59,130 nucleotides of DNA. Origin: an uncultured Muribaculaceae bacterium (GTDB taxonomy: Bacteria; Bacillota_I; Bacilli_A; RF39; UBA660). The notes under the pieces were generated by a model. That model had not been told where the DNA came from, ran no database searches, and worked only from the letters and a program-made list of their open reading frames with translations. A program made the position numbers and the translations under genes. The stretch lies in contig CAZKFB010000003.1 of NCBI GenBank assembly GCA_964551965.1, positions 1 to 59,130 of the forward strand, read 5' to 3'. Below are positions 15,149-27,207 of this stretch, one piece after another; the first letter of the stretch is position 1, and each line of letters begins with the position of its first letter.

Positions 15149-15210
15149 TAAATATCTATTCCCTTTTTTATTTTGTTTTTGTATAATGAACTTAGAAAAG
15201 AGTGATTATT

Positions 15211-16104
15211 ATGGAATACTATATTGATTTAGGTTCTTCAACAATTAAAGTATATAGTTACTTAGATAGTTTAAATCTATTAGAAGAACATTCGATTTAT
15301 TTTAAAAATAATTTTGATTCAGAAAATGGAATAAGTGCTGTTAATCGTCAAGAATTAATAGATTATTTTGAACATTTAAAATCTAAATATGATATGCACT
15401 ATGAAAATACCCATATCTTTGTTACAGGTATATTTAGAAACTTAAGTTATGCGAGAAAATGTGAGTTAGTTAGATTATTTAATGATACTTTTGATTTACA
15501 TTTTAATATTATTAGTCATGGAATTGAAGCTTATTATTTAGGTAAAGCTATGGAAAATAATTATGATGGCAAAAAAGTGTTAATTATTAATATGGGTGGA
15601 AAAACAACAGAACTTGTAACTTTTGCTAAAGAAGAAATTGTAAAAGTAGATAAGTTGGAAATTGGTGTTGCTGATATATTAAATAATTTTTTAAATATTA
15701 ATGATAAATCTAGTAAAGATAAAGTAGAAACTATTGTTGATTTTGTTAATGAAAGAATTAAAGATGTTAAGTTTGATCAAGACTATGATGCTGCAATATT
15801 TACGGGTGGAGAAGAAAGATTTGAATTATTAACTAAATTTAACTTAGTAGAAAATACTTTATTCAATGATGGAATTCATAAATATATGGTTTCTTTAGAT
15901 GATTATGTCAAAGGAACTGAGAAAGTCTTCTATGATATAAGTTTAGAAGAGTTGTATAAATTGATGCCAGGAAATCCTAAATGGATGGATGGAGCAAGAG
16001 CTGGAGCTATTATTCCATTAAGTATATTCTATAAAGCAAATATTAAATGGGTTATACCTTCTGATTTAAACTTAATTAATGGTGTTATTAATGATAATAA
16101 GTAA
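15211..16104 (+). CDS. Ppx/GppA-like phosphatase (ASKHA fold)
   Basis: YIDLGSSTIK, ISHGIEA and INMGGKTTE motifs; track start GTG 15202. Confidence 0.7.
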   Translation: MEYYIDLGSSTIKVYSYLDSLNLLEEHSIYFKNNFDSENGISAVNRQELIDYFEHLKSKYDMHYENTHIFVTGIFRNLSYARKCELVRLFNDTFDLHFNIISHGIEAYYLGKAMENNYDGKKVLIINMGGKTTELVTFAKEEIVKVDKLEIGVADILNNFLNINDKSSKDKVETIVDFVNERIKDVKFDQDYDAAIFTGGEERFELLTKFNLVENTLFNDGIHKYMVSLDDYVKGTEKVFYDISLEELYKLMPGNPKWMDGARAGAIIPLSIFYKANIKWVIPSDLNLINGVINDNK

Positions 16105-16174: not shown

Positions 16175-16873
16175 ATGTTAGAATTTATAAAGAATTGTTT
16201 TAAAAACATAAGTGTTAAATGTAATTATCAAGAGTTGGCGGGAGTTAAAAAAGTTATAGCTTTTGCTTTTTGCGCTATTCTTATTGCTCTTGTCTTAGGT
16301 ATTGCTGCTGCTATGATAGTTGCAATGCTTGCATTAGCTATTTGTATTATACCTATAGGTTTAGTAATTAATGGTGTTCAATTATTAGTTCCATTAATTA
16401 AACAATCATTGAAAGTTGCTAAAATGAAAAAGAAATTAAAAAAACAAAAGCGTAGACAATCACAAGAACTTGTTGAACTTTATACTAACAATATGGAGAG
16501 TATTAATAATACTATAGGAGCATTAGAAAATAGTTCTACTATTGTTGAAGATGAATTAGGTAGAGAAGTAGAAACACAAGAATTAGTTGATATTAGTCTA
16601 GAAGACCTTGTATGTTATATTCAATATATAGCTACAATTAATCCTGGCGATGCAGAAATGTTAATGGGGCTTCATTCTCGTCTAGATATGCTAAAATCAA
16701 TTATGGATAGAACTATAAGTCATGAAGAACGTGAAAAACTTGAAAGTGAATACTATAGTATAATGTTCAGTGTTCAAGAAAAACTTATTGAATATGTTGA
16801 TGGCATAAATAGTATAAATGATACTTTTGTTAAAGGAACAAAAAAAAGAAGATTATTTAATAGGGGATTATAA
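16175..16873 (+). CDS. Hypothetical membrane protein (232 aa)
   Basis: Long hydrophobic stretch near N-terminus, charged helical C-domain. Confidence 0.75.
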   Translation: MLEFIKNCFKNISVKCNYQELAGVKKVIAFAFCAILIALVLGIAAAMIVAMLALAICIIPIGLVINGVQLLVPLIKQSLKVAKMKKKLKKQKRRQSQELVELYTNNMESINNTIGALENSSTIVEDELGREVETQELVDISLEDLVCYIQYIATINPGDAEMLMGLHSRLDMLKSIMDRTISHEEREKLESEYYSIMFSVQEKLIEYVDGINSINDTFVKGTKKRRLFNRGL

Positions 16874-17584
16874 TCTTCTTTTTATTTCTAATAATTTATT
16901 TACTTCATAAGTTGGTATTAAATTTCCTGCTTCTTTATTTTGTGGGTTATACCAAATAGTATCAAAACCATTATTAATTCCGCTAGCAATATCTGTAGTG
17001 AGGGAATCTCCGATAAATATAACATTACTTTTGGGTTCTTTTAAATCGTTAAATAGAGCATCCCAGAAATTGTGATCAGGTTTAGAAAAACCTAAAACTT
17101 CTGAACAATATATACTTGTAAAATATTTTTTAAAATCAACTTTGTTTAATTTATTTGTTGCGGCATTATATGGGCCATTAGTTGCAATAGCTAGACGGTA
17201 TTTATCGTATAGATATTCAAGAATCTCTCTAGCGCCTTCAATACTTTCAATATCAACACCTAAATTGCTACAATAAAGATTATTAATAGTTATAGCATGA
17301 TCAAAATCTTGAAGATGGAAGAATTCAAAAAATCTATTTGATCTTAAATAAGTTCTTAATTCTTCAACGTTCTCTTGAATATAAAGATGCTCAGGGACTA
17401 TCATTGTTCTATGTTCCCATCGGTACCAATATTCATAATCAAACTGTAAAAAAGCATAAAATAATTCATCTTGATAGGGAATACCTAAATACTCAGAAAT
17501 AACTTTAAATGCATAATTAGAAGCTTTAGTATTATCTATTAAAGTATCATCTAAATCAAGTATTATCGTGCTATATTTTTTCAT
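16868..17584 (-). CDS. YjjG-like HAD-superfamily nucleotidase
   Basis: ILDLDDTL, ATNG, KPD, IGDSLTTDIASG, TIWYNP. Confidence 0.9.
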   Translation of the reverse strand: MKKYSTIILDLDDTLIDNTKASNYAFKVISEYLGIPYQDELFYAFLQFDYEYWYRWEHRTMIVPEHLYIQENVEELRTYLRSNRFFEFFHLQDFDHAITINNLYCSNLGVDIESIEGAREILEYLYDKYRLAIATNGPYNAATNKLNKVDFKKYFTSIYCSEVLGFSKPDHNFWDALFNDLKEPKSNVIFIGDSLTTDIASGINNGFDTIWYNPQNKEAGNLIPTYEVNKLLEIKRRL

Positions 17585-17684
17585 GATATCCCTCCTTGAT
17601 TTGTTATTATATCATATTTACACTGATATGCTAGAAAATAAATACAAAACTAAATTATTTGATATAATTATAGTAGGTGATTGT

Positions 17685-18779
17685 ATGATACAAGAGTTTT
17701 TACAAGGATTAAAAAGTAAGTACCAATATGATGATAATATATTAAAAGCAATTGAGATAACAATTAATTTAATGATTAAAAAGTATGGGAATGAAGCATT
17801 GAATGATATCTTAGAATTATTTAATAGTATTCCGATTTTTCCTTTTGTTGGATTAAATCAGAGTATTGTTAATGAAAAAATGAAAGAGTGTTTTGAAGGA
17901 AATAATCCTCATATTATTGAAGATGAAGAAGAGAATATATATGGTACTAATGCCGTAGGATCTGTATATTGTTATAATCCAATATTTAATGAAGATATGG
18001 AAGTAGTAGGAGAATCCAATTTTATAATTGTTGATGATAAAAAGGGTACAACTCAAGAAGCGGATTATTTTAATACTTTTGGTACAACAATAAATATTCC
18101 TTATTTCTTACATGAAGTTAATCATGCTTATGGTATGCAAAAGAAGAAATATGTTAATATAGATAATCAAATATTATGTAAACATGGATTATTTACTTCT
18201 GTTATTGATTATAAAAAGGAAGGAGATAAATATCATATAAGTACAACTAGTGGAAAAGATATTGTATTTGAAGAGATCATTAATCAAATGATAACCCAAG
18301 ATATGTTATGTGATTTCTTTAATGTTAATTCGTATAATGAAGTTAAACCAATACTTGATAGTATTAAATATGTTCCGATGGAATATGATTCTCTTCTAGT
18401 ATTTATTGGTAGAGAACTTAGTTTTGCAATGGGCGAGCAAGCAATTATGGATTTTAGAAGAGAAAATGATGAATCAGTCATTGAAGAATTTAATAATATG
18501 GCTGGACAAAGTGATATAGCAATTGAATATTTAGATGGAATAAAACCTCTTGAATATTTTGTTAACAAAACATATGATTTATTTCAACTTATTATTAACA
18601 AGTATAAATATGGCATTGAAAAATATGGTGAATTATCAGCAGAACTTATGTTAGATTCTTTAGCCCCCGTATATGCTTATGCAGATAAAAAGAATAATAC
18701 AGTTACTTTAGAAAAATATAAACAACAAAGAGAAAAAGTAATGAGTCCTTATAATAATCCGGATAAAAAATTAGACTAG
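17685..18779 (+). CDS. Putative zincin metallopeptidase-like protein (~364 aa)
   Basis: LHEVNH (HExxH) plus downstream FEEIIN; ATG 17685 has AGGTG RBS and TGATATAAT at 17660; track start 17568 overlaps the opposite gene. Confidence 0.6.
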   Translation: MIQEFLQGLKSKYQYDDNILKAIEITINLMIKKYGNEALNDILELFNSIPIFPFVGLNQSIVNEKMKECFEGNNPHIIEDEEENIYGTNAVGSVYCYNPIFNEDMEVVGESNFIIVDDKKGTTQEADYFNTFGTTINIPYFLHEVNHAYGMQKKKYVNIDNQILCKHGLFTSVIDYKKEGDKYHISTTSGKDIVFEEIINQMITQDMLCDFFNVNSYNEVKPILDSIKYVPMEYDSLLVFIGRELSFAMGEQAIMDFRRENDESVIEEFNNMAGQSDIAIEYLDGIKPLEYFVNKTYDLFQLIINKYKYGIEKYGELSAELMLDSLAPVYAYADKKNNTVTLEKYKQQREKVMSPYNNPDKKLD

Positions 18780-18793
18780 TTCCTCATGAGAAT

Positions 18794-18822
18794 TTGACAT
18801 TTTTAAATATTTCATATATAAT
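18794..18822 (+). promoter_or_regulatory. Consensus sigmaA promoter
   Basis: TTGACA 18794-18799, 17-nt spacer, TATAAT 18817-18822. Confidence 0.85.
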
Positions 18823-18894
18823 GGCTTTCAAGTGAGGAGATATAAGTTAATCGAGCTATCTCGGGTGAAGAGCCTACACAATTATTATAATTGG

Positions 18895-18928
18895 AGTCAC
18901 GAACTATCTTGTTCGTGGCTTTTTGTTT
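18895..18928 (+). terminator. Intrinsic terminator / attenuator hairpin 1
   Basis: agtcacgaac-tatctt-gttcgtggct (10 bp incl. one GU) followed by ttttgttt. Confidence 0.75.
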
Positions 18929-18957
18929 GGAGTTACGAGCATAAAGGAGGATGTAAT

Positions 18958-19038
18958 ATGAAAAATTATGTCATGTATTTTTATAATTGTTTCTATGCTG
19001 TCAGTGACTCAATAACCATTATGAGTGAGTTATTTTAA
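18958..19038 (+). CDS. 26-aa small ORF MKNYVMYFYNCFYAVSDSITIMSELF (leader peptide or small protein)
   Basis: AAAGGAGG at 18943-18950, 7 nt before ATG; equals the C-terminal part of track ORF 18832..19038. Confidence 0.6.
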   Translation: MKNYVMYFYNCFYAVSDSITIMSELF

Positions 19039-19073
19039 CCAAATAATGACATACTTGGATTTTAATCATTGAT

Positions 19074-19108
19074 AACATAGACTTAATTATTTGTCTATGT
19101 TTTTGTTT
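19074..19108 (+). terminator. Intrinsic terminator / attenuator hairpin 2
   Basis: aacatagac / gtctatgtt stem followed by tttgttt. Confidence 0.7.
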
Positions 19109-19171
19109 ACACATTAATCTTTTTCTACTAATTAGTATGTTATAATTTTAAATAGTAGGAGTGTGATGTTT

Positions 19172-20149
19172 ATGGCTGTAATTGAAGTAAAGAATTTATC
19201 AAAAAAGTTTAAAGTAAAAATAAAGGAAAAAGGTTTAAAAGGTAGTTTAAAAACTATAATTAAACCAAAATATAAGACAATAGAAGCTGTAAAAGATATT
19301 AGTTTTGAAGTAGAAAAAGGAGAAATTGTTGCCTTTATTGGACCTAATGGAGCAGGTAAAAGTACAACAATTAAGATGATGACAAGTATATTGAATCCTG
19401 ATTCAGGTTCTATTAAAGTACTAGGATTTGATCCAATGAAAGATCGTAAGAAATTATCATACGCAATTGGAACAGTATTTGGTCAAAAAGAACAATTATG
19501 GACGCATTTAACTCCATACGATAACTTTAAGTTCTTTGGAGCTATTTATGATATTCCATCCTATGCTGTTGATAAAAAGATAGAGGAATTTAAAGCATTG
19601 TTTGAATTGGAAGAATTTATAGATACTCCAGTTCGTAATCTATCTTTAGGTCAAAGAATTAGATGTGAAATTGTTGCATCTTTAATTCATGAACCTAAAG
19701 TAATGTTCTTAGATGAACCAACGATTGGTCTTGATCCGGTAGTTAAAGAAAATATTAGAACTTTAATTAAACGAATGAATAAGGAATATAAGACAACAAT
19801 AATATTAACGAGTCACGATGTATCTGACATTGAAAAACTATGTAAACGAGTAATCATTATTAATAATGGACAATTAGTAATGGATGATTCAATGGAGAAT
19901 TTAAAATATCATTATTTAAACAAAAAGATTGTTGATGCTAAGATGAGAGAAAAAGTTAATCTAGATGATGAAGATGGTATAACAATTCTTAAGGATAAAG
20001 GATATAACATTAAAATAGAAGTTGATATTACTAAGAGAAGTGTAACTGATGCGTTAAAACTATTGAATCCTGATAATATAGTTGATATTAATATATCTAA
20101 TACTCCACTAGAGGATATTATTAGTAGTATTTATAAAAATAAGGAGTAA
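19172..20149 (+). CDS. ABC transporter ATP-binding subunit (DrrA-like)
   Basis: GPNGAGKS, LSLGQ, FLDEPTIGLD, TSH; start may be 19163 or 19166. Confidence 0.92.
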   Translation: MAVIEVKNLSKKFKVKIKEKGLKGSLKTIIKPKYKTIEAVKDISFEVEKGEIVAFIGPNGAGKSTTIKMMTSILNPDSGSIKVLGFDPMKDRKKLSYAIGTVFGQKEQLWTHLTPYDNFKFFGAIYDIPSYAVDKKIEEFKALFELEEFIDTPVRNLSLGQRIRCEIVASLIHEPKVMFLDEPTIGLDPVVKENIRTLIKRMNKEYKTTIILTSHDVSDIEKLCKRVIIINNGQLVMDDSMENLKYHYLNKKIVDAKMREKVNLDDEDGITILKDKGYNIKIEVDITKRSVTDALKLLNPDNIVDINISNTPLEDIISSIYKNKE

Positions 20150-20150
20150 C

Positions 20151-20942
20151 ATGAAAAAGTATTTATTTATAATAAAAACCGAAATAATGTCTAATTTCCA
20201 ATATATATGGAATGTTTTATTTGGATTTGTTGGTTATGCAATTATATTATTTATTCTATTTAACTTATGGAAATATCTCTATAGTGATCCTAGTCAATTA
20301 ATAAATGGCTATAACATGAATCAAATGACATGGTATGTAATTATTACTGAGATTCTTTGGAGTACTTTAGGTGGTAGAAAATTATGTCGTAAGATAAGTA
20401 ATGATGTTAAAAGTGGTAATATAGCTTACAACATAAATAAACCTTATGATTATATTGGTTATTCTCTATCTACTCATTTAGGAGATATGATAGTAAAAGG
20501 AATTATATTTACTATTTTAGGAATGCTTCTTGGATATATATTTTTAGGATCTTTTCCAAATTTAAATATAATTAGTATATTAATACTTATCTTAGTAGCA
20601 ATTTTAGCATCAATTATTAGTTGTTTATTAATTATTATAATTGGACTATTTTCTTTCTTTATTGAAGATTCAGGACCATTCTATTGGTTATATAGTAAAT
20701 TTATTCTTATTTTAGGAACGATATTTCCTATTGAATACTTTCCTAAAGTAATGCAAGGATTTTTGAATTATAGTCCAGTTTATGTAGTTAGTTATGGACC
20801 TGCTAAATTGTTTGTTGATTTTTCTTATTCAAGAGCTTTATCAATAATAATTGCCCAAGTAGTTTATATTATTGTTGTATCTTTAATTGCAAACATTATA
20901 TATAGAAAGGGAGTGAAGAGAATAAATGTTAACGGTGGTTAA
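20151..20942 (+). CDS. ABC-2 type permease
   Basis: Six hydrophobic segments, G-I-A-x-x-I-x-KP loop, operonic with the ATPase. Confidence 0.85.
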   Translation: MKKYLFIIKTEIMSNFQYIWNVLFGFVGYAIILFILFNLWKYLYSDPSQLINGYNMNQMTWYVIITEILWSTLGGRKLCRKISNDVKSGNIAYNINKPYDYIGYSLSTHLGDMIVKGIIFTILGMLLGYIFLGSFPNLNIISILILILVAILASIISCLLIIIIGLFSFFIEDSGPFYWLYSKFILILGTIFPIEYFPKVMQGFLNYSPVYVVSYGPAKLFVDFSYSRALSIIIAQVVYIIVVSLIANIIYRKGVKRINVNGG

Positions 20943-21720
20943 AAATCAAATAAAAGTTAATTTATTAACACTTAAATATGCTATTATGAGAGAAATGATT
21001 AATAAAATCACATTCTTTTCTAATATTATATTTATGATATTGAATAATTCATGTATGATTGTTCAATGGGTTGTTCTTTTTTCCATTAAAAGTGATATGG
21101 GGGGATATACTTTTCGAGATGTCCTTCTATTATGGGGACTTGCAGCAGGGACATATGGAGTATCACATTTTTTCTTTAAGAGATGTTTTAATCTATCAGA
21201 AACTATTAATAATGGTTCTTTAGACAATTATATTATTCAACCTAAAAATATCTTATTATCAGCTATTACTTCGGATGTTGAAGTGTCAGCCTTAGGTGAT
21301 ATGGTATTTGCTATAATAGTCTATTTTATATATGGATTTACTATTAGAGGATTTATTCTATTCATCTTGTTTTCTATAACAGGAGGTTTAATGATAACAG
21401 CTATTTCTGTTATCTTGAATAGTTTGAGCTTTTGGTTTAATAATGCCGATATGATTGCTGAATCAGGTAATGGTTTAATGACTAACTTTGCAACATATCC
21501 GGATGGAATATTTAAGGGAATTACTAAATGGTTACTATTTACAATTATTCCGGTTGGAATAGTTAATTATATACCAATAAAAGCAATAATAGCTTTTAAT
21601 CCAACATTGTTATTAATCAATGTTGTTGGTTGTATAATATTGGTTACTTTAGCATTCTTAGTATTCTATTTAGGTTTAAAAAGATATTCATCTACTAACT
21701 TGATGAATGCAAGAATTTAA
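20926..21720 (+). CDS. ABC-2 type permease (second subunit)
   Basis: Six hydrophobic segments, GSLDNYIIQP and YPDGIF motifs. Confidence 0.85.
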   Translation: MLTVVKNQIKVNLLTLKYAIMREMINKITFFSNIIFMILNNSCMIVQWVVLFSIKSDMGGYTFRDVLLLWGLAAGTYGVSHFFFKRCFNLSETINNGSLDNYIIQPKNILLSAITSDVEVSALGDMVFAIIVYFIYGFTIRGFILFILFSITGGLMITAISVILNSLSFWFNNADMIAESGNGLMTNFATYPDGIFKGITKWLLFTIIPVGIVNYIPIKAIIAFNPTLLLINVVGCIILVTLAFLVFYLGLKRYSSTNLMNARI

Positions 21721-21764
21721 GGATACGAACAAGATAGTATAAAAGATCTAATTTCTTAGATCTT

Positions 21765-22391
21765 TTAAAGTGCCTGATTTTTTATATCTCCATAAAAATT
21801 ATCTCCACAATTTTGTATTAGATATTCATTAGCTTTATATATTTTAGTAAATTCATATCCGTTAGATTTATCTTGAAATGCATTAAATAGAAGATAACCA
21901 ATTAGAAATATATTCATTTCTTTTATATTGTTATTATAGAAGTTTTTCTTTAAAAATTCTTCTTCAGTAGGAACGTACATATAACTAGTTAAATCAATAA
22001 AGTAGAAATGATTATCATGTATTATGTAGTTATAGTATAAGTCTTGTATTTTAAATCCATTATCACTCAAAATGATAATATCTTCTTTGATTCCTTCATA
22101 GTCTATTGAATCTCTATCTAATTCACTTTCTAGTAGTTTATTTTCAGTATATCCAATTACCATACCATCTTTGATAATTAAGTCTTGAGGTTTATTAAAG
22201 AATTTTAGGGGTAGAGTACTTAATTTTTCTATACCATTAATACTTATTATTTTATATGGAGAAGTTCTATTGTTTGAAAATAGTTTTATTACTTTATCTT
22301 CATAGTTATAAGCAGTTACTTCTTTTCCAGCACCTAAAATATTATCTTCTCTTATGTATTGTTCAATATTTTCATAGTTTATTTTATTCAT
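21765..22391 (-). CDS. Minimal protein-kinase-like fold protein (208 aa)
   Basis: LGAGKEVTAY Gly-loop, VIK, QDLYYN and FID motifs. Confidence 0.55.
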   Translation of the reverse strand: MNKINYENIEQYIREDNILGAGKEVTAYNYEDKVIKLFSNNRTSPYKIISINGIEKLSTLPLKFFNKPQDLIIKDGMVIGYTENKLLESELDRDSIDYEGIKEDIIILSDNGFKIQDLYYNYIIHDNHFYFIDLTSYMYVPTEEEFLKKNFYNNNIKEMNIFLIGYLLFNAFQDKSNGYEFTKIYKANEYLIQNCGDNFYGDIKNQAL

Positions 22392-22481: not shown

Positions 22482-23855
22482 ATGTTAAGAAATGTAATTT
22501 CCGTAATTGATGGAGCTGCCGGTTCTTGTGGTAAAGCTAAAGTAATTGGTGAGATAGCTACTTTAGAAGGAATTAATTTAGGTGCTAGTGTAACCAATTG
22601 TATGCCTAATGCTGGTCATTCTTTTGTTGATAATAGAGGTAAAAAAATAGTATTTCGCAATATTCCCGTATCTTCAGTTAACCCTAAAACAGAATTATTT
22701 ATTGGTCCAGGATCAGCAATTGATATGGAAGTATTTAAAGATGAATATATGCGAGTTCAGAAAATTGTTGGAAATCGAAAAATATATATTCATGAGATGA
22801 CTCCCTTAATAGAAGAAAGACATAAAGCATATGAAAGGGAGCATATAAAAAGCGGTTCGACTTTTAAAGGATGTGGAGCTGTTACTCAAGAGAAAGTTAT
22901 TCGTGATGAAAAGTTAAGATTCTTTAAAGATTTTAAAAATGCTATAGTTTTATCCAATGATGATTGGTTAGATTGTCTTTATAAACATTTAGATAATGAA
23001 TCTGAATATGTTATGATGGAAGGATCTCAGGGTTGTGACTTAGATTTAAACCATAGTGGTAATTATCCTTATGTAACGAGTAGAAATGTATCAACAACTC
23101 AGTTGCTTGCCGATTCAGGAATTTCTGCAGAAAGATTGTTACAAACAATTTTAGTAATTAGACCTTTTCCAATTAGAATAAGCAATATTACTAAAACAGG
23201 TAAATATATCTATACTGGTTCTTATGGTACGGGGGAAGAATTAAAATGGACACAAGTAAATTTAGCTAGTATGTATGGTGGTTATCCATTTAAAGGCGAT
23301 GTTGATTTATATTCATCTAAATTAGCATGTGATATTGTTTCAAGACTTATTGATGAATGTCCGGAAGTATATTTAAAACAAGTATTTAAAAATAATTATA
23401 AAAATATTGTGGTAGAAAACATTACTCTTTTAGAAGCCTTAGAAATTGAGAGATTAGTTCATAAATCAAGAGGAGAAAGAGAGTACCAAACCGAGTTAAT
23501 AGATTTACCAACATTAGATTCTGAATTACCGGAAAACACGATAATAGATCAATCAGAAGAGACAACAGTTACAAAGATGGAGAGAAGAATATTTGATCTC
23601 GATATAAATAAATTAAAAAATAATTGCCGTATTAATACACCATCTAGTTTATATCTTAACTTTTTTGAACATTTAGGATACGAATTTATAAATGAAAAAG
23701 GTTTATTTGATGATATATATTTTAATAGGTATTTAAGAGAATATTTAAATTGGTTAGAGTATGAAACGGGCATTGATATATCAGCTTTAGGTACGGGACA
23801 AATTAATGGAAGTAGGATTGTAAAACAAAGAATATTGAGAGATATAATAAAGTAA
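22482..23855 (+). CDS. Adenylosuccinate synthetase-family enzyme with PurZ/PurZ0-like signatures and ~100-aa insertion
   Basis: GSCGK (Ser15 in place of the Asp of PurA GDEGK), MPNAGH, GSTFKG, EGSQG, YPYVTSR, RPFPIR, TTVTKMERR, LNF, LGTG. Confidence 0.85.
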   Translation: MLRNVISVIDGAAGSCGKAKVIGEIATLEGINLGASVTNCMPNAGHSFVDNRGKKIVFRNIPVSSVNPKTELFIGPGSAIDMEVFKDEYMRVQKIVGNRKIYIHEMTPLIEERHKAYEREHIKSGSTFKGCGAVTQEKVIRDEKLRFFKDFKNAIVLSNDDWLDCLYKHLDNESEYVMMEGSQGCDLDLNHSGNYPYVTSRNVSTTQLLADSGISAERLLQTILVIRPFPIRISNITKTGKYIYTGSYGTGEELKWTQVNLASMYGGYPFKGDVDLYSSKLACDIVSRLIDECPEVYLKQVFKNNYKNIVVENITLLEALEIERLVHKSRGEREYQTELIDLPTLDSELPENTIIDQSEETTVTKMERRIFDLDINKLKNNCRINTPSSLYLNFFEHLGYEFINEKGLFDDIYFNRYLREYLNWLEYETGIDISALGTGQINGSRIVKQRILRDIIK

Positions 23856-23895
23856 TTATTGCTTATTAATGATATAATTATTGTAGGTGATTACT

Positions 23896-24660
23896 ATGAA
23901 AAATGATTATGATAAATTTGCTTTAAAAAGACAACAAGATATAATTAATGGACTTAAACCTTCACATCGCTTTGTTGAAAAACCAATGATGAAGAGCATG
24001 ATGCCTGACTTGAAAGACAAAAAAATATTAATGCTTGGATGTGGAACTGGTGAAGAATCGGTTTTACTTGAAAATTTTGGAGCTGATCCTAAAAATATTG
24101 TAGGTATCGATTTATCTAGCAATTCTATTGAAATTGCTAAAAAGTCTTATCCTGATATTGAATTTATAGTAGGTGATATGAATTCTTTACCTTTTGATGA
24201 TAATACTTTTGATTTTTGTTATAGTAGTTTAGCTGTACATTATAGTGGAACTCCAAATAAAGTTTATAATGAAGTTTATCGAGTTTTAAATAGTGATGGA
24301 TTATTCTTATTTTCCGTTGCGCATCCCCTAAGATGGGCATCAGAAGAAAAGAGTATTGATGGTGATATTGCAAGAGTTATTGGATGTTCTAAAAGTGACA
24401 AAGCAAATAATGTATATGGAAAATATCATACATTTGAAAAGCATACCTTCTCATCTTTTGCTTGGCAAGATGATGGAGAAATATTGGAGTTTTATGTTGG
24501 ATCTCCATCCATGCATTTTAAATTGCTAAAGTCTGCTAAATTTGATATAATTGATTTCACTGAGTCAAAATGCGTTGAAGAAGCTAAGGAAGTAGATATA
24601 AATTATTACACTAAAAATGTTGAAGTACCTCAATTTATGGCATTCTTAGCTAAAAAGTAA
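23896..24660 (+). CDS. Class I SAM-dependent methyltransferase
   Basis: LMLGCGTG, GIDLS, GDMNSLPF, LNSDG; track start GTG 23887. Confidence 0.9.
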   Translation: MKNDYDKFALKRQQDIINGLKPSHRFVEKPMMKSMMPDLKDKKILMLGCGTGEESVLLENFGADPKNIVGIDLSSNSIEIAKKSYPDIEFIVGDMNSLPFDDNTFDFCYSSLAVHYSGTPNKVYNEVYRVLNSDGLFLFSVAHPLRWASEEKSIDGDIARVIGCSKSDKANNVYGKYHTFEKHTFSSFAWQDDGEILEFYVGSPSMHFKLLKSAKFDIIDFTESKCVEEAKEVDINYYTKNVEVPQFMAFLAKK

Positions 24661-24670
24661 AGGGGTTATT

Positions 24671-25435
24671 ATGAATAAAAAAGAGATATTAAAGAATGTC
24701 GATATTTTATATGCTATGTGGAAAAAAGGAGTTCTTGGAGGAGAAGTAATGCCGGAAGATGCAAATCCGCATCTAGAAAAATCTTCTTTAGAAAATTATC
24801 TATATTTTACTTTACCGATGGCTTTAAATTATCAGAGAAATTCTTATACTTTATGGGAAAGTGCAAATAAAACTTATAATGATGAAGAGACAAGATTTGT
24901 CTTTGATCCAAAAGAGTGCTTAAATAGGAGTTTTGAAGAGGTTCAATATGCTTTAACGAAATATAAAGTTGCTTTGCAGCGTCAAAAACAAACAGAGATA
25001 TGGTTAACTCTTTGTAAGACTTTTGTTGAATTATTTGATGGGGATATCAGGAATCTTTTTATAGAGTTCGATAATGATGTCGATAAAATTAGGGATTTTA
25101 TTCAAAATATAAATAAAAAGAAGTTTCCATATTTATCAGGAACTAAGATTTGTAATTATTGGCTATTTGTAATTTGGCAATATACAGGAATTCAATATAA
25201 AAATATTGAAAATCTAACAGTAGCTCCTGATACACATGTTATTAAATCTACTCATAGATTAGGTTTAATTAATGATTCAGAACTAGAAAGTTCAAAGGTT
25301 CAATCTATTGTAATTGAAAGATGGAATGAATTATTTGAAGGGACGAAGTATAAACCTATAGATATTCATACTCCATTATGGTTATGGAGTAGAAATGGGT
25401 TTATTGATTTAGATGAAAATATTCTAAATAAATAG
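24671..25435 (+). CDS. HhH-GPD superfamily DNA glycosylase-like protein
   Basis: HhH-like YLSGTKI with Lys and APDTHV with Asp; no Cys4 Fe-S motif. Confidence 0.55.
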   Translation: MNKKEILKNVDILYAMWKKGVLGGEVMPEDANPHLEKSSLENYLYFTLPMALNYQRNSYTLWESANKTYNDEETRFVFDPKECLNRSFEEVQYALTKYKVALQRQKQTEIWLTLCKTFVELFDGDIRNLFIEFDNDVDKIRDFIQNINKKKFPYLSGTKICNYWLFVIWQYTGIQYKNIENLTVAPDTHVIKSTHRLGLINDSELESSKVQSIVIERWNELFEGTKYKPIDIHTPLWLWSRNGFIDLDENILNK

Positions 25436-25461: not shown

Positions 25462-27207
25462 ATGAAAAAGAATAAAGAAAAATCAAATTTTTGGAAAAAT
25501 GTAAAAAAGACTTGGAAGTACATAAAAGATGCTAAAGGCAATTTAGCTGGCTATGCAGTAGTTAGTATTGGTGAAGGTGTAATAGGTGCAATATTACCTT
25601 TAATATCAGCTAAGATTATCTTAAATATTACTGATGGATTAATGTCACAGTTAATACTAACAGCATTATCAGTATTTGCGATAGAATTTGTTTTATATAT
25701 TATGTATTTCTTTAAGGGGTTCTTTTATCAAAGAGTATATCAAAAAACACTCATTAATTTGCAAACTGCTGTAGCAAGAGAAACTCTAAATTTAGAGATA
25801 AAAGAGATTGATAAAGCATCGTCAGGATTATTTATTGACCGATTAAATAAAGATACGGGAGATATTTCTGGATTATTTATGGAATATACTTATTGGTTAT
25901 CTTATGTTATATCAAATGTAGGAGTACTAGTTGCTGTATTCATACTTAATAAATATTTATTCATATATGCCATAATAACTTCTATTGCTATTTTCTTAAT
26001 AAATAGAAAGAGACTTAGTAAACAATATGAAGTCCAAAAGAATTTAAAAAAGATTCAAGAGAAGAAAACAGGTCTTGTTGGGGAACTTGTTAGAGGTATT
26101 AGAGATATTAAAGTATTAAATGCAAGCGATAATATTCTAAGACAAACTACAGATAAGATTATTGAATCTTCTAATGAAGAAGTTAAAATGTTAAATATTA
26201 GAAGAATATATCAATATTTTGAAAGCAATTTAAGATCGTTAACTGATTTTATATTTATAGTAATTGGATGTGTATTATATGAACATTCATTGTTAACGAT
26301 ACCGACTTTTATAATTATTTATAATTATCAACCAAAAATAAGAAACTTACTTATGGGTGTAGTTCAGATTTCAGAATTTAATAAAAAGTTTATTGTTGCT
26401 TCCGATCGTATTTATGAAGTAATTGAAGATGAAACATTTGCTAAAGAAAAATTTGGAGATTTAGATATTAAAAAACTATCAGGTCATATTGAATTTAATA
26501 ATGTTAAGTTTGGCTATAACGAAAATACAGGAATAATAAATAATATGAGTTTTGAAATTGATCCTAATCAAAAAGTTGCCTTCGTAGGTAAGAGTGGGGC
26601 CGGTAAGACAACAATATTTAGTTTAATAACTAAACTATACTCTATTGATGAAGGTGAGATATTATTAGATGGACACAATATCAATGATTTAACTCGTGAT
26701 TCTCTAAGAGATAATATGTCTATTATTACGCAAAATCCATATATCTTTAATTTCTCAATTAAGGATAACTTACTTTTAGCAAAAGAGAATGCTAGTATGA
26801 GAGAAATTAGAAAAGCTTGTAAGATGGCATGTATAGACGACTTTATAATGTCATTGCCAGAAAAGTATGATACTATGGTTGGAGAAAATGGAGTAATACT
26901 ATCAGGAGGTCAAAAGCAAAGACTTGCAATAGCTAGAGCACTATTAATGAAAACGGAGATTATTCTATTTGATGAAGCTACTAGTGCATTGGATAACGAA
27001 ACCCAAAGTGAAATTCAAAATGCTATAGATAACTTAAAGGGAGAGTATACAGTATTAATTGTTGCTCATAGATTATCAACAGTAATTGATAGTGATAAGA
27101 TATTCGTAGTTGATGATGGAAAGATAATTGATAGTGGTTCTCATAAAGAATTACTTAAGAAGAGTGAATTCTATAGAAACTTATATGAAAAAGATTTAAA
27201 TGTTTAA
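25462..27207 (+). CDS. ABC exporter, fused permease/ATPase (canonical site)
   Basis: GKSGAGKT, LSGGQKQR, LFDEATSALD, VAHRLST. Confidence 0.92.
   Translation: MKKNKEKSNFWKNVKKTWKYIKDAKGNLAGYAVVSIGEGVIGAILPLISAKIILNITDGLMSQLILTALSVFAIEFVLYIMYFFKGFFYQRVYQKTLINLQTAVARETLNLEIKEIDKASSGLFIDRLNKDTGDISGLFMEYTYWLSYVISNVGVLVAVFILNKYLFIYAIITSIAIFLINRKRLSKQYEVQKNLKKIQEKKTGLVGELVRGIRDIKVLNASDNILRQTTDKIIESSNEEVKMLNIRRIYQYFESNLRSLTDFIFIVIGCVLYEHSLLTIPTFIIIYNYQPKIRNLLMGVVQISEFNKKFIVASDRIYEVIEDETFAKEKFGDLDIKKLSGHIEFNNVKFGYNENTGIINNMSFEIDPNQKVAFVGKSGAGKTTIFSLITKLYSIDEGEILLDGHNINDLTRDSLRDNMSIITQNPYIFNFSIKDNLLLAKENASMREIRKACKMACIDDFIMSLPEKYDTMVGENGVILSGGQKQRLAIARALLMKTEIILFDEATSALDNETQSEIQNAIDNLKGEYTVLIVAHRLSTVIDSDKIFVVDDGKIIDSGSHKELLKKSEFYRNLYEKDLNV

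What the first reader, a model, noticed from the sequence alone, without database searches (positions are those of the whole stretch)
22482..25435. Candidate purine-modification module: PurZ-like + SAM methyltransferase + HhH glycosylase-like
Seen: three co-directional genes with gaps of 40 nt and 10 nt and no obvious terminator hairpin between them. Inference: synthesis of a modified purine, methylation, and base excision could form a nucleotide-modification or anti-phage system, for example poisoning phage replication or excising non-canonical bases. Caveat seen in sequence: TGATATAAT at 23870-23878 could give the methyltransferase its own promoter, and both downstream families are often found alone.
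Basis: inference. Interest (0 to 1): 0.62.

Follow-up and report, generated by a model that had tools for sequence, protein, structure and literature searches.

The report
Bacterial PurZ-like gene beside unrelated neighbours
The three genes are real and intact, but they are a recent chance neighbourhood rather than a fixed module; the first gene is still notable, because it is a bacterial relative of the phage enzyme PurZ carried by small-genome gut bacteria that lack the enzyme needed to finish that pathway.

Summary
Three intact co-directional genes lie at 22482-25435 with gaps of 40 and 10 nt and no terminator between them. A fourth gene, an ABC exporter, follows after 26 nt. The three-gene module is not conserved. 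Of 80 other species that carry the first gene, one close relative shares the arrangement. In the genus it is 2 of 22 genomes.

- **Gene 1** is a PurZ-type enzyme: Ser replaces the catalytic Asp, the TTVTK..RR loop is present, and the fold is PurZ-like. It carries a 111-aa helical insert. It branches inside the phage PurZ group but sits in chromosomes of uncultured small-genome gut Bacilli.
- **Its only recurrent partner** is a Ppx/GppA-family phosphatase gene directly upstream in 36 of 76 loci. Here that gene lies 6.4 kb away, at 15202-16104.
- **No carrier has purB** (0 of 23), so the known route to AMP or 2-aminoadenine cannot be completed.
- **Gene 3** has an HhH glycosylase fold closest to the queuosine-salvage enzyme QNG1. 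Elsewhere it is fused to methyltransferases or to a queuosine-salvage domain, so genes 2 and 3 may form their own pair.

A looser link remains. The glycosylase-like gene lies within 4 kb of the PurZ-like gene in 5 of 81 loci, in three different arrangements.

The parts
15202..16104 (+). Ppx/GppA-family (ASKHA fold) phosphatase-like gene. It is the orthologue of the gene that sits directly upstream of the PurZ-like gene in other species.
   Evidence: PF02541 scores 38 bits against a cut-off of 27. Weak match to H. pylori GppA 6PC0. It is 70-72% identical to the co-directional gene found 12-33 nt upstream of the PurZ-like gene in 36 of 76 loci.
16175..22391 (.). Seven intervening genes that separate the usual pair in this genome: an unknown 232-aa gene, a YjjG-like HAD nucleotidase (16868-17584, minus strand), an unknown 403-aa gene, an ABC ATPase with two permeases (19163-21720), and an unknown 208-aa gene (21765-22391, minus strand).
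   Evidence: The close relative L006 lacks the ABC operon, the Ppx/GppA-like gene and the 232-aa gene at this place, so the region is fluid.
22482..23855 (+). PurZ-type (Ser-type) member of the adenylosuccinate synthetase family, 457 aa.
   Evidence: Motifs GSCGKAK (Ser15 in place of the PurA Asp13), NAGH and TTVTKMERR. The model has pLDDT 93, and its best structural matches are phiVC8 PurZ 6FKO, short PurA 5K7X, S-2L PurZ 7ODX and PurZ0 7VF6. It is nested in the Ser-type clade in the tree.
23217..23546 (+). In-frame insertion of about 111 aa (residues ~246-355) just before the aspartate-binding loop. It is predicted to form a helical bundle.
   Evidence: Phage PurZ and PurZ0 have 16-23 residues here against 111 in this protein. 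Predicted helices at 256-265, 283-292, 295-308 and 316-329, at high confidence.
23870..23878 (+). Extended -10 promoter-like motif TGATATAAT, 17 nt before the methyltransferase start codon.
   Evidence: The motif class is enriched 2.5-fold in the window and sits before many genes.
23896..24660 (+). Class I SAM-dependent methyltransferase of unknown substrate.
   Evidence: Methyltransf_11/25/31 at E down to 1e-23. Orthologues occur in 8 of 22 genomes of the genus, mostly without either neighbour; in G006 it sits 10 nt after the Ppx/GppA-like gene.
24543..24551 (+). Second extended -10 motif (TTGCTA-17-TGATATAAT), inside the 3' end of the methyltransferase gene.
   Evidence: It is the best promoter-like site in the region, matching 10 of 12 positions with a TG.
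24671..25435 (+). HhH-GPD-fold, QNG1-like glycosylase-like protein.
   Evidence: The model has pLDDT 91. Its best structural matches are DUF2419/QNG1 (7U1O, E=6e-4, TM 0.61), followed by Ogg and EndoIII. K159 and D187 are invariant. Fusions to methyltransferases and to Q_salvage occur elsewhere.
25462..27207 (+). MsbA-like ABC exporter (fused permease and ATPase), the fourth co-directional gene.
   Evidence: ABC_membrane plus ABC_tran. It is 90% identical and syntenic in L006 only.

Best explanation
This is a lineage-specific juxtaposition of separately inherited accessory genes of nucleotide metabolism. It is not a dedicated three-gene system.

Gene 1 belongs to a bacterial clade of PurZ-type ligases. 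By inference it uses ATP to activate O6 of a guanine (deoxy)nucleoside monophosphate and joins L-aspartate to C6, giving an N6-succino-2-aminopurine nucleotide. Its usual operon partner is a Ppx/GppA-family phosphatase. I infer that this partner supplies the monophosphate from the di- or triphosphate, as MazZ does for phage PurZ. In this genome the partner has been displaced to 15202-16104.

The carrier genomes lack PurB and canonical PurA. The product therefore cannot be turned into AMP or 2-aminoadenine by the known route, and its fate is unknown.

Genes 2 and 3, the methyltransferase and the QNG1-like glycosylase, are more likely a small unit of their own acting on free modified nucleotides or nucleosides. 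The ABC exporter is a further neighbour.

Shown here: the protein identities, the folds, the distributions, the neighbourhoods and the absence of purB. Inferred: the substrates, the role of the phosphatase and the role of the glycosylase.
For: **Neighbourhood.** Only L006, the closest relative (83% identity), of 80 species loci has the methyltransferase, glycosylase-like and ABC genes next to the PurZ-like gene. De novo clustering finds one recurrent neighbour, the Ppx/GppA-like gene: 36 of 76 loci, same strand, gap 12-33 nt. Its orthologue lies at 15202-16104.

**Order-wide sample of 151 genomes.**
- The PurZ-like gene is in 8 genomes, and the phosphatase orthologue is in 9.
- Both are in 5, against about 0.5 expected.
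- Each also occurs alone.

**PurZ character.**
- Ser15, NAGH and TTVTK..RR are conserved.
- The gene lies inside the Ser-type clade with SH-aLRT 99.
- The fold matches PurZ and short PurA at TM 0.83-0.88.

**purB.**
- It is absent from 0 of 26 genomes of the own genus, family and order.
- It is also absent from all 23 PurZ-like carriers, including a complete 1.5-Mb chromosome.
- It is present in 5 of 8 genomes of the same order that have canonical purA. My Fisher arithmetic gives p about 3e-4.

**Methyltransferase-glycosylase link.** The glycosylase-like domain is fused to class I methyltransferases in P0343, L030 and G188. It is fused to Q_salvage in G157 and G126, and sits beside HD, DUF84 NTPase and HAD phosphatase genes elsewhere. 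Its best structural match is QNG1.

**Promoters.** Promoter-like motifs precede genes 2 and 3.
Against: - The glycosylase-like gene lies within 4 kb of the PurZ-like gene in 5 of 81 loci, in three arrangements (window and L006; L030; L082 and L083). That is far more than independent placement predicts.
- In L083 the PurZ-like gene ends a tightly packed co-directional run with the glycosylase-like gene and a UDG-superfamily gene.
- Class I methyltransferases recur near the PurZ-like gene (L045, L030).
- The fused methyltransferases are only 25% identical to the window's methyltransferase, so the case for a gene 2-3 pair is modest.
- The phosphatase partner is not obligatory.
- No biochemical data exist for any of these proteins.
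- Co-transcription could not be tested.
Confidence: 0.6

Rival explanations
1. The PurZ-like enzyme, the methyltransferase and the glycosylase-like protein, perhaps with the exporter, work together as a purine-modification or anti-phage system. They would make, methylate and release or excise a non-canonical purine.
For: - Spacing is tight and co-directional, with no terminator.
- The arrangement is kept under purifying selection in a second species.
- The glycosylase-like gene is near the PurZ-like gene in 5 of 81 loci, in three arrangements.
- UDG-superfamily genes lie nearby in 5 loci, and class I methyltransferases in 4.
- In G006 the methyltransferase directly follows the PurZ-like gene's usual partner.
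- Glycosylases acting as antiviral effectors are established (Brig1, PMC11078745).
Against: - 75 of 80 species lack both neighbours within 6 kb.
- G157 carries both the PurZ-like and the glycosylase-like gene, but on different contigs.
- Of 8 methyltransferase-bearing genomes in the genus, only 2 have the trio.
- There are no PADLOC hits for the PurZ-like or glycosylase-like proteins.
- Promoter-like motifs precede genes 2 and 3.
Confidence: 0.15
2. The PurZ-like enzyme, with or without the phosphatase, is a nucleotide-depleting or poisoning device acquired from phages. In a cell without PurB it would divert (d)GMP into a dead-end succino-nucleotide, for example during infection.
For: - Its origin lies inside the phage PurZ radiation.
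- Its distribution is patchy, about 5% of the order, with high sequence conservation and variable flanks.
- purB is absent from all carriers.
- Occasional neighbours include AbiEii-like AAA_21 and DUF1016.
Against: - It has no match to known defence families.
- No toxin-control partner or sensor is evident.
- It is not found on viral contigs or prophages.
- Neighbours are mostly housekeeping or metabolic genes.
Confidence: 0.15
3. Gene 1 is simply the organism's divergent housekeeping adenylosuccinate synthetase (IMP to AMP).
For: The genome has no canonical purA, and the gene is intact and under purifying selection.
Against: - No carrier has purB.
- About 130 of 151 genomes of the order have neither purA nor this gene, so AMP is evidently obtained by salvage.
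- The catalytic Asp is replaced by Ser, as in PurZ.
- The gene branches within PurZ, not PurA.
Confidence: 0.03

Closest known systems
Phage PurZ (N6-succino-2-amino-2'-deoxyadenylate synthase, also called DgsS) of Vibrio phage phiVC8 and cyanophage S-2L
   Same: - Ser replaces the PurA catalytic Asp, and NAGH is kept.
- The TTVTK..RR aspartate loop is conserved, as is the small PurZ-specific insertion after the PIRV/I strand.
- The fold is the short type (TM 0.84-0.86).
- Most clade members have Gln at the position that reads the phosphate donor's base, as S-2L has Q308. The window's own protein has Glu (residue roles from PMC8342488).
   Different: - Identity is about 30%, and the score is below the NCBIfam PurZ cut-off (174 against 300 bits).
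- There is an extra 111-aa helical insert.
- Ala13 replaces the aromatic residue next to the guanine 2-amino pocket.
- The gene is chromosomal in bacteria rather than phage-borne.
- No DatZ, MazZ or DpoZ lies nearby.
- The host has no PurB to finish the pathway.
PurZ0 (Gordonia phage Archimedes, PDB 7VF6) and short archaeal PurA (Pyrococcus horikoshii, PDB 5K7X)
   Same: The same short fold (TM 0.83-0.88). PurZ0 also has the Ser.
   Different: PurZ0 and PurA carry Asp at the donor-base position and branch outside the clade that holds this gene. Archaeal PurA keeps the catalytic Asp.
The MazZ-PurZ pairing in Z-genome phages, where a (d)GTP pyrophosphatase feeds PurZ
   Same: A nucleotide phosphohydrolase-type gene sits directly beside the ligase gene in about half of the species (role of MazZ from PMC8342488).
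   Different: The partner here is Ppx/GppA-family (ASKHA fold), not MazG-like. Its substrate is unknown, it has no phage homologue, and the pairing is facultative.
QNG1/DUF2419, the queuosine-5'-phosphate N-glycosylase used in queuine salvage
   Same: It is the best structural match of gene 3 (7U1O, TM 0.61). An invariant Lys and Asp lie about 28 residues apart. The domain is fused to a true Q_salvage domain in two genomes.
   Different: The window protein has no Pfam Q_salvage hit. Fusion to a separate Q_salvage domain suggests it is a distinct, second domain with its own substrate.
Brig1-type antiviral DNA glycosylases (PMC11078745)
   Same: Glycosylase-fold genes (UDG superfamily and HhH type) occur near the PurZ-like gene in some genomes.
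   Different: No homology to Brig1 was tested or shown, no defence island is evident here, and there are no PADLOC hits.

Membership tests
PurZ (NCBIfam NF038379) | Score at or above the curated cut-off of 300 bits | tested here: not met
   173.9 bits, matching residues 7-262 only.
PurZ (NCBIfam NF038379) | Ser in place of the PurA catalytic Asp13 in the P-loop (GS[TCE]GKG) | tested here: met
   GSCGKAK with Ser15, invariant across the 56-sequence alignment.
PurZ (NCBIfam NF038379) | Conserved aspartate-contacting loop TTVT followed by RR, and the catalytic His (NAGH) | tested here: met
   T361-T364, R368/R369 and H46. Residue roles are taken from PMC8342488.
PurZ (NCBIfam NF038379) | Phylogenetic position inside the Ser-type PurZ group, apart from PurA | tested here: met
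   The clade is nested within 145 Ser-type sequences, with PurA as outgroup (SH-aLRT 99) and PurZ0 more basal. This is a quick tree without bootstraps.
PurZ (NCBIfam NF038379) | Phage genome context with DatZ, MazZ/DUF550 or a Z-specific polymerase | tested here: not met
   Flanks are chromosomal in 80 species. No close relative occurs on IMG/VR contigs.
PurZ (NCBIfam NF038379) | A PurB in the cell to convert the succino-intermediate into dZMP | tested here: not met
   0 of 23 carriers have purB, while 5 of 8 genomes of the same order with canonical purA do.
PurZ (NCBIfam NF038379) | Catalysis of dGMP + Asp + ATP to dSMP | not testable with these tools
   Needs an enzyme assay.
Canonical adenylosuccinate synthetase PurA (TIGR00184) | Score at or above the cut-off (395 bits), catalytic Asp13, long-type fold | tested here: not met
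   94.7 bits. Ser is at that position. TM to long PurAs is about 0.63, against 0.85 to the short type.
HhH-GPD DNA glycosylases (PF00730) | Pfam gathering score | tested here: not met
   16.6 bits against 26.2, E=0.0099. Sequence and profile searches of the PDB found nothing meaningful.
HhH-GPD DNA glycosylases (PF00730) | HhH-GPD fold with a conserved catalytic Asp, and a Lys in bifunctional members | tested here: inconclusive
   The fold matches MjOgg, Tm1821 and EndoIII at TM 0.45-0.53 with probability 1.0. K159 and D187 are invariant. Their equivalence to the EndoIII Lys and Asp was judged by eye only.
QNG1 / Q_salvage (PF10343) | Pfam match | tested here: not met
   The window protein has no PF10343 hit. 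The family is nevertheless its top structural match.
Ppx/GppA phosphatases (PF02541), for the partner gene at 15202-16104 | Pfam gathering score | tested here: met
   38 bits against 27. The exopolyphosphatase equivalog TIGR03706 is far below its cut-off, at 51 against 307 bits.
Known anti-phage defence systems (PADLOC-DB 2.0) | Match of any component to a defence-system model | tested here: not met
   No hits for the PurZ-like, Ppx/GppA-like or glycosylase-like proteins. The methyltransferase matches only the methyltransferase domain of mad2.

The most novel reading that the evidence does not exclude
A lineage of uncultured, reduced-genome gut Bacilli has domesticated a phage PurZ-type enzyme for a cellular purpose that does not pass through PurB. 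One possibility is that an N6-succino-2-aminopurine nucleotide is itself the end product, serving as a signal, an antimetabolite or a pool-depleting defence. The other is that an unknown enzyme completes synthesis of 2-aminoadenine nucleotides in a cell. In either case the QNG1-like and UDG-like glycosylases, the methyltransferases and the nucleotide phosphatases that recur nearby would form a loose toolkit for processing this non-canonical purine.
Probability: 0.15. Interest if true: 0.85.

Novelty: new variant of a known kind. Interest (0 to 1): 0.5.

Why it matters
In the papers I could search, PurZ-type enzymes are described only from phages plus four archaeal sequences (PMC12884076). They are understood as the first step towards 2-aminoadenine DNA, which the host's PurB completes.

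Here a well-conserved clade sits in bacterial chromosomes of at least 80 species that have no PurB. It carries a new insert and has a new type of phosphatase partner. Either these cells make a succino-purine nucleotide for its own sake, or an unknown enzyme finishes the pathway. Both outcomes would extend the biology of non-canonical purines beyond viruses.

The QNG1-like glycosylase family is also undescribed. Its fusions to methyltransferases and to a queuosine-salvage domain point to salvage of modified nucleotides in auxotrophic gut bacteria.

For the finding as posed, the useful result is negative. The three-gene module should not be treated as a system.

Tried and rejected
- **Housekeeping PurA.** Rejected because no carrier has purB, most of the order has neither gene, and the active site is the Ser type.
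- **Prophage or viral context.**
  - No phage genes lie in the flanks.
  - A single-sequence scan of IMG/VR found nothing.
  - A profile scan found only short-type relatives at 40% identity or less, without any of the neighbours.
  - The Ppx/GppA-like protein has no match in isolated phages.
- **Known defence system.** PADLOC gave no relevant hits.
- **Sequence-level identification of gene 3.**
  - phmmer against the PDB gave only spurious NAD kinase matches.
  - A family profile gave none.
  - Only structure prediction with Foldseek resolved it.
- **Contexts of the nearest short and long relatives** (P0124, P0122). The contigs were too short to be informative.
- **Literature.** No paper links PurZ with RF39, and none found describes chromosomal bacterial PurZ.
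Full report
**Observation.** The window is contig C3 of a 1.27-Mb assembly that is 81% complete and has about 27% G+C. Its relatives are uncultured gut "Bacilli/Tenericutes" genome bins with 1-2 Mb genomes.

Three intact ORFs lie on the + strand at 22482-23855, 23896-24660 and 24671-25435. The gaps are 40 and 10 nt. No terminator-like site lies between them. TGATATAAT is at 23870-23878.

A fourth co-directional gene, an MsbA-like ABC exporter at 25462-27207, follows after 26 nt. All four genes show dN/dS of 0.06-0.10 against the closest relative.

**Is it a module?**
- I fetched the loci of 80 other species that encode a homologue of gene 1 at 50-83% identity. I then searched their 6-kb flanks with all the window's neighbours. 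Only L006, the closest relative, has the methyltransferase, glycosylase-like and ABC genes beside it.
- Within the genus, 8 of 22 genomes have the methyltransferase orthologue, but only two (G000 and G003, which is L006) have the trio.
- A Pfam tally of the two genes downstream of each homologue gave 114 families among 126 proteins. None occurred more than five times.
- Across an even sample of 151 genomes from 87 genera of the order, gene 1 is in 8 and gene 3 is in 13. They overlap only in G000 and in G157, where they are on different contigs, plus a short variant in G126.
- TGNTATAAT is 2.5-fold enriched in the window and usually lies 5-40 nt before start codons. One copy precedes gene 2. 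Another, at 24543-24551, precedes gene 3.

**What gene 1's real partner is.** De novo clustering of all flanking ORFs found a single recurrent neighbour. It is a gene of about 298 aa on the same strand, 12-33 nt upstream, in 36 of 76 loci that have upstream DNA. It belongs to the Ppx/GppA family (PF02541, 38 bits against a cut-off of 27). In this window its orthologue (70-72% identity) lies at 15202-16104, 6.4 kb upstream of gene 1.

The interval is fluid. L006 lacks the ABC operon at 19163-21720. It also lacks the block that holds the Ppx/GppA-like gene. In G006 the Ppx/GppA-like gene is followed after 10 nt by the methyltransferase, with no PurZ-like gene.

In the order-wide sample the two genes co-occur in 5 genomes, against about 0.5 expected. 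Each also occurs alone.

**What gene 1 is.**
- PDB alignments show GSCGKAK where PurA has GDEGKG and PurZ has GSTGKG. They also show a conserved NAGH and the loop TTVTKMERR, like PurZ's TTVTKxxRR.
- A search of 1.84 billion representative proteins found that the best 150 hits are almost all Ser-type.
- In a tree rooted on PurA sequences from the same order, the clade lies inside the Ser-type group (SH-aLRT 99). PurZ0 is more basal, and phiVC8 and SH-Ab PurZ sit in a sister clade.
- The nearest relatives include long-insert forms (P0122, P0127) and short forms at about 50% identity.
- The closest isolated phage protein is from Bacillus phage vB_BpsS-140, at 36.5% identity.
- The AlphaFold model (pLDDT 93) best matches phiVC8 PurZ, P. 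horikoshii short PurA, S-2L PurZ and PurZ0 (TM 0.83-0.88). Long PurAs score about 0.63.
- An in-frame insertion of 111 residues (~246-355) forms a helical bundle just before the aspartate loop.
- At the position that reads the phosphate donor's base, PurA and PurZ0 have Asp and PurZ has Asn or Gln. Most clade members have Gln, and this protein has Glu.
- Ala13 replaces the aromatic residue next to the guanine 2-amino pocket (pocket description from PMC8342488).

**Metabolic context.** The genome has no canonical purA. purB and detectable relatives are absent from all 26 sampled genomes of the genus, family and order. They are also absent from all 23 carriers of the PurZ-like gene, including a complete 1.5-Mb chromosome.

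As a control, 5 of 8 genomes of the same order with canonical purA have purB, adjacent to purA where I compared coordinates (G120, G186). About 130 of 151 genomes have neither purA nor the PurZ-like gene. These bacteria evidently salvage adenine nucleotides, so gene 1 is an accessory gene and not a PurA substitute.

Because the aspartate loop is intact, the likely product is a succino-purine nucleotide. Its fate without PurB is unknown.

**What genes 2 and 3 are.** Gene 2 is a generic class I SAM methyltransferase.

Gene 3 has no significant sequence match. Its model (pLDDT 91) best matches the queuine-salvage enzyme DUF2419/QNG1, followed by the HhH-GPD DNA glycosylases. K159 and D187 are invariant.

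In other genomes the same domain has several partners:
- It is fused at its C-terminus to class I methyltransferases in P0343, L030 and G188.
- It is fused to a bona fide Q_salvage domain in G157 and G126 (E=1.6e-41).
- It is adjacent to HD, DUF84 NTPase and Cof-type HAD genes.

This points to action on free modified nucleotides or nucleosides. It also gives modest independent support for a methyltransferase-glycosylase pair. The support is only modest because the fused methyltransferases are just 25% identical to gene 2.

**Residual link.** The glycosylase-like gene lies within 4 kb of the PurZ-like gene in 5 of 81 loci, in three arrangements:
- PurZ-like, methyltransferase, glycosylase-like, as in this window and L006.
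- A glycosylase-methyltransferase fusion, two genes, the Ppx/GppA-like gene, then the PurZ-like gene, in L030.
- Glycosylase-like, a UDG-superfamily gene (L083 only), an unknown gene, then the PurZ-like gene, tightly packed, in L082 and L083.

UDG-superfamily, Nudix and YjjG-like HAD genes also recur nearby. I estimate about 0.06 such loci would be expected if the genes were placed independently. The excess could come from a shared theme of nucleotide processing or from shared accessory regions.

**Comparison with what is known, and novelty.** The papers I could search place only phage sequences and four archaeal sequences in the PurZ group (PMC12884076). No paper links PurZ with these bacteria. 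No component hits a known defence family.

Earlier notes of this scan had flagged the same protein family in other genomes. I treated these as leads. I tested the phosphatase pairing and the insertion myself, and I added the purB result, the order-wide distributions and the characterisation of gene 3.

**Verdict.** The trio is an ordinary, lineage-specific neighbourhood. Gene 1 is a new bacterial variant of the PurZ kind, and its function in a PurB-less cell is unresolved.

Noticed in passing
window 24671-25435; L111 3991-5682; L112 3080-4765; L030 2159-3532; L109 3397-4818: The QNG1-like, HhH-fold domain forms an undescribed and highly conserved family (63-85% identity across genera, more than 3500 homologues). 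It occurs alone, fused to class I methyltransferases, or fused to a Q_salvage (PF10343) domain.
   Followed up: partly
window, whole (34 sites, e.g. 19138, 28115, 30986, 38647, 57503): The extended -10 motif TGNTATAAT is 2.5-fold enriched and often lies only 5-20 nt before start codons. This suggests very short or absent mRNA leaders in this organism.
   Followed up: no
L093 (G121:C5:16500-18500) and L094 (G148:C7:12500-14500): Two genomes of the order carry a divergent PurA of about 470 aa. It scores 190-212 bits, keeps GDEGKG, and has lost the TTT..RR aspartate loop. Neither genome has purB.
   Followed up: no
proteins P0158, P0174, P0192, P0207, P0264: Some Ser-type PurZ relatives are 734-798 aa long, so they are fused to one or more additional domains of unknown nature.
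   Followed up: no
L083 2780-7413: An Erysipelotrichales genome bin has a co-directional run: a UDG-like gene, the QNG1-like gene, a UDG-superfamily gene overlapping it by a few nt, an unknown 228-aa gene, and the PurZ-like gene.
   Followed up: partly
window 16868-17584 (-); L006 3341-4054; L007 7423-8175; L062 9104-9838: A YjjG-family noncanonical pyrimidine nucleotidase (HAD) recurs within a few kb of the PurZ-like gene in four loci.
   Followed up: no
G000 contig C27:8699-9571 (-): A second, distant paralogue (about 27% identity) of the Ppx/GppA-like gene is present in this genome and in many genomes of the order. It may be the housekeeping copy.
   Followed up: no
L103 (G058:C4:24496-25500): One genome of the order holds a decayed copy of the PurZ-like gene, in fragments with an internal stop.
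   Followed up: no
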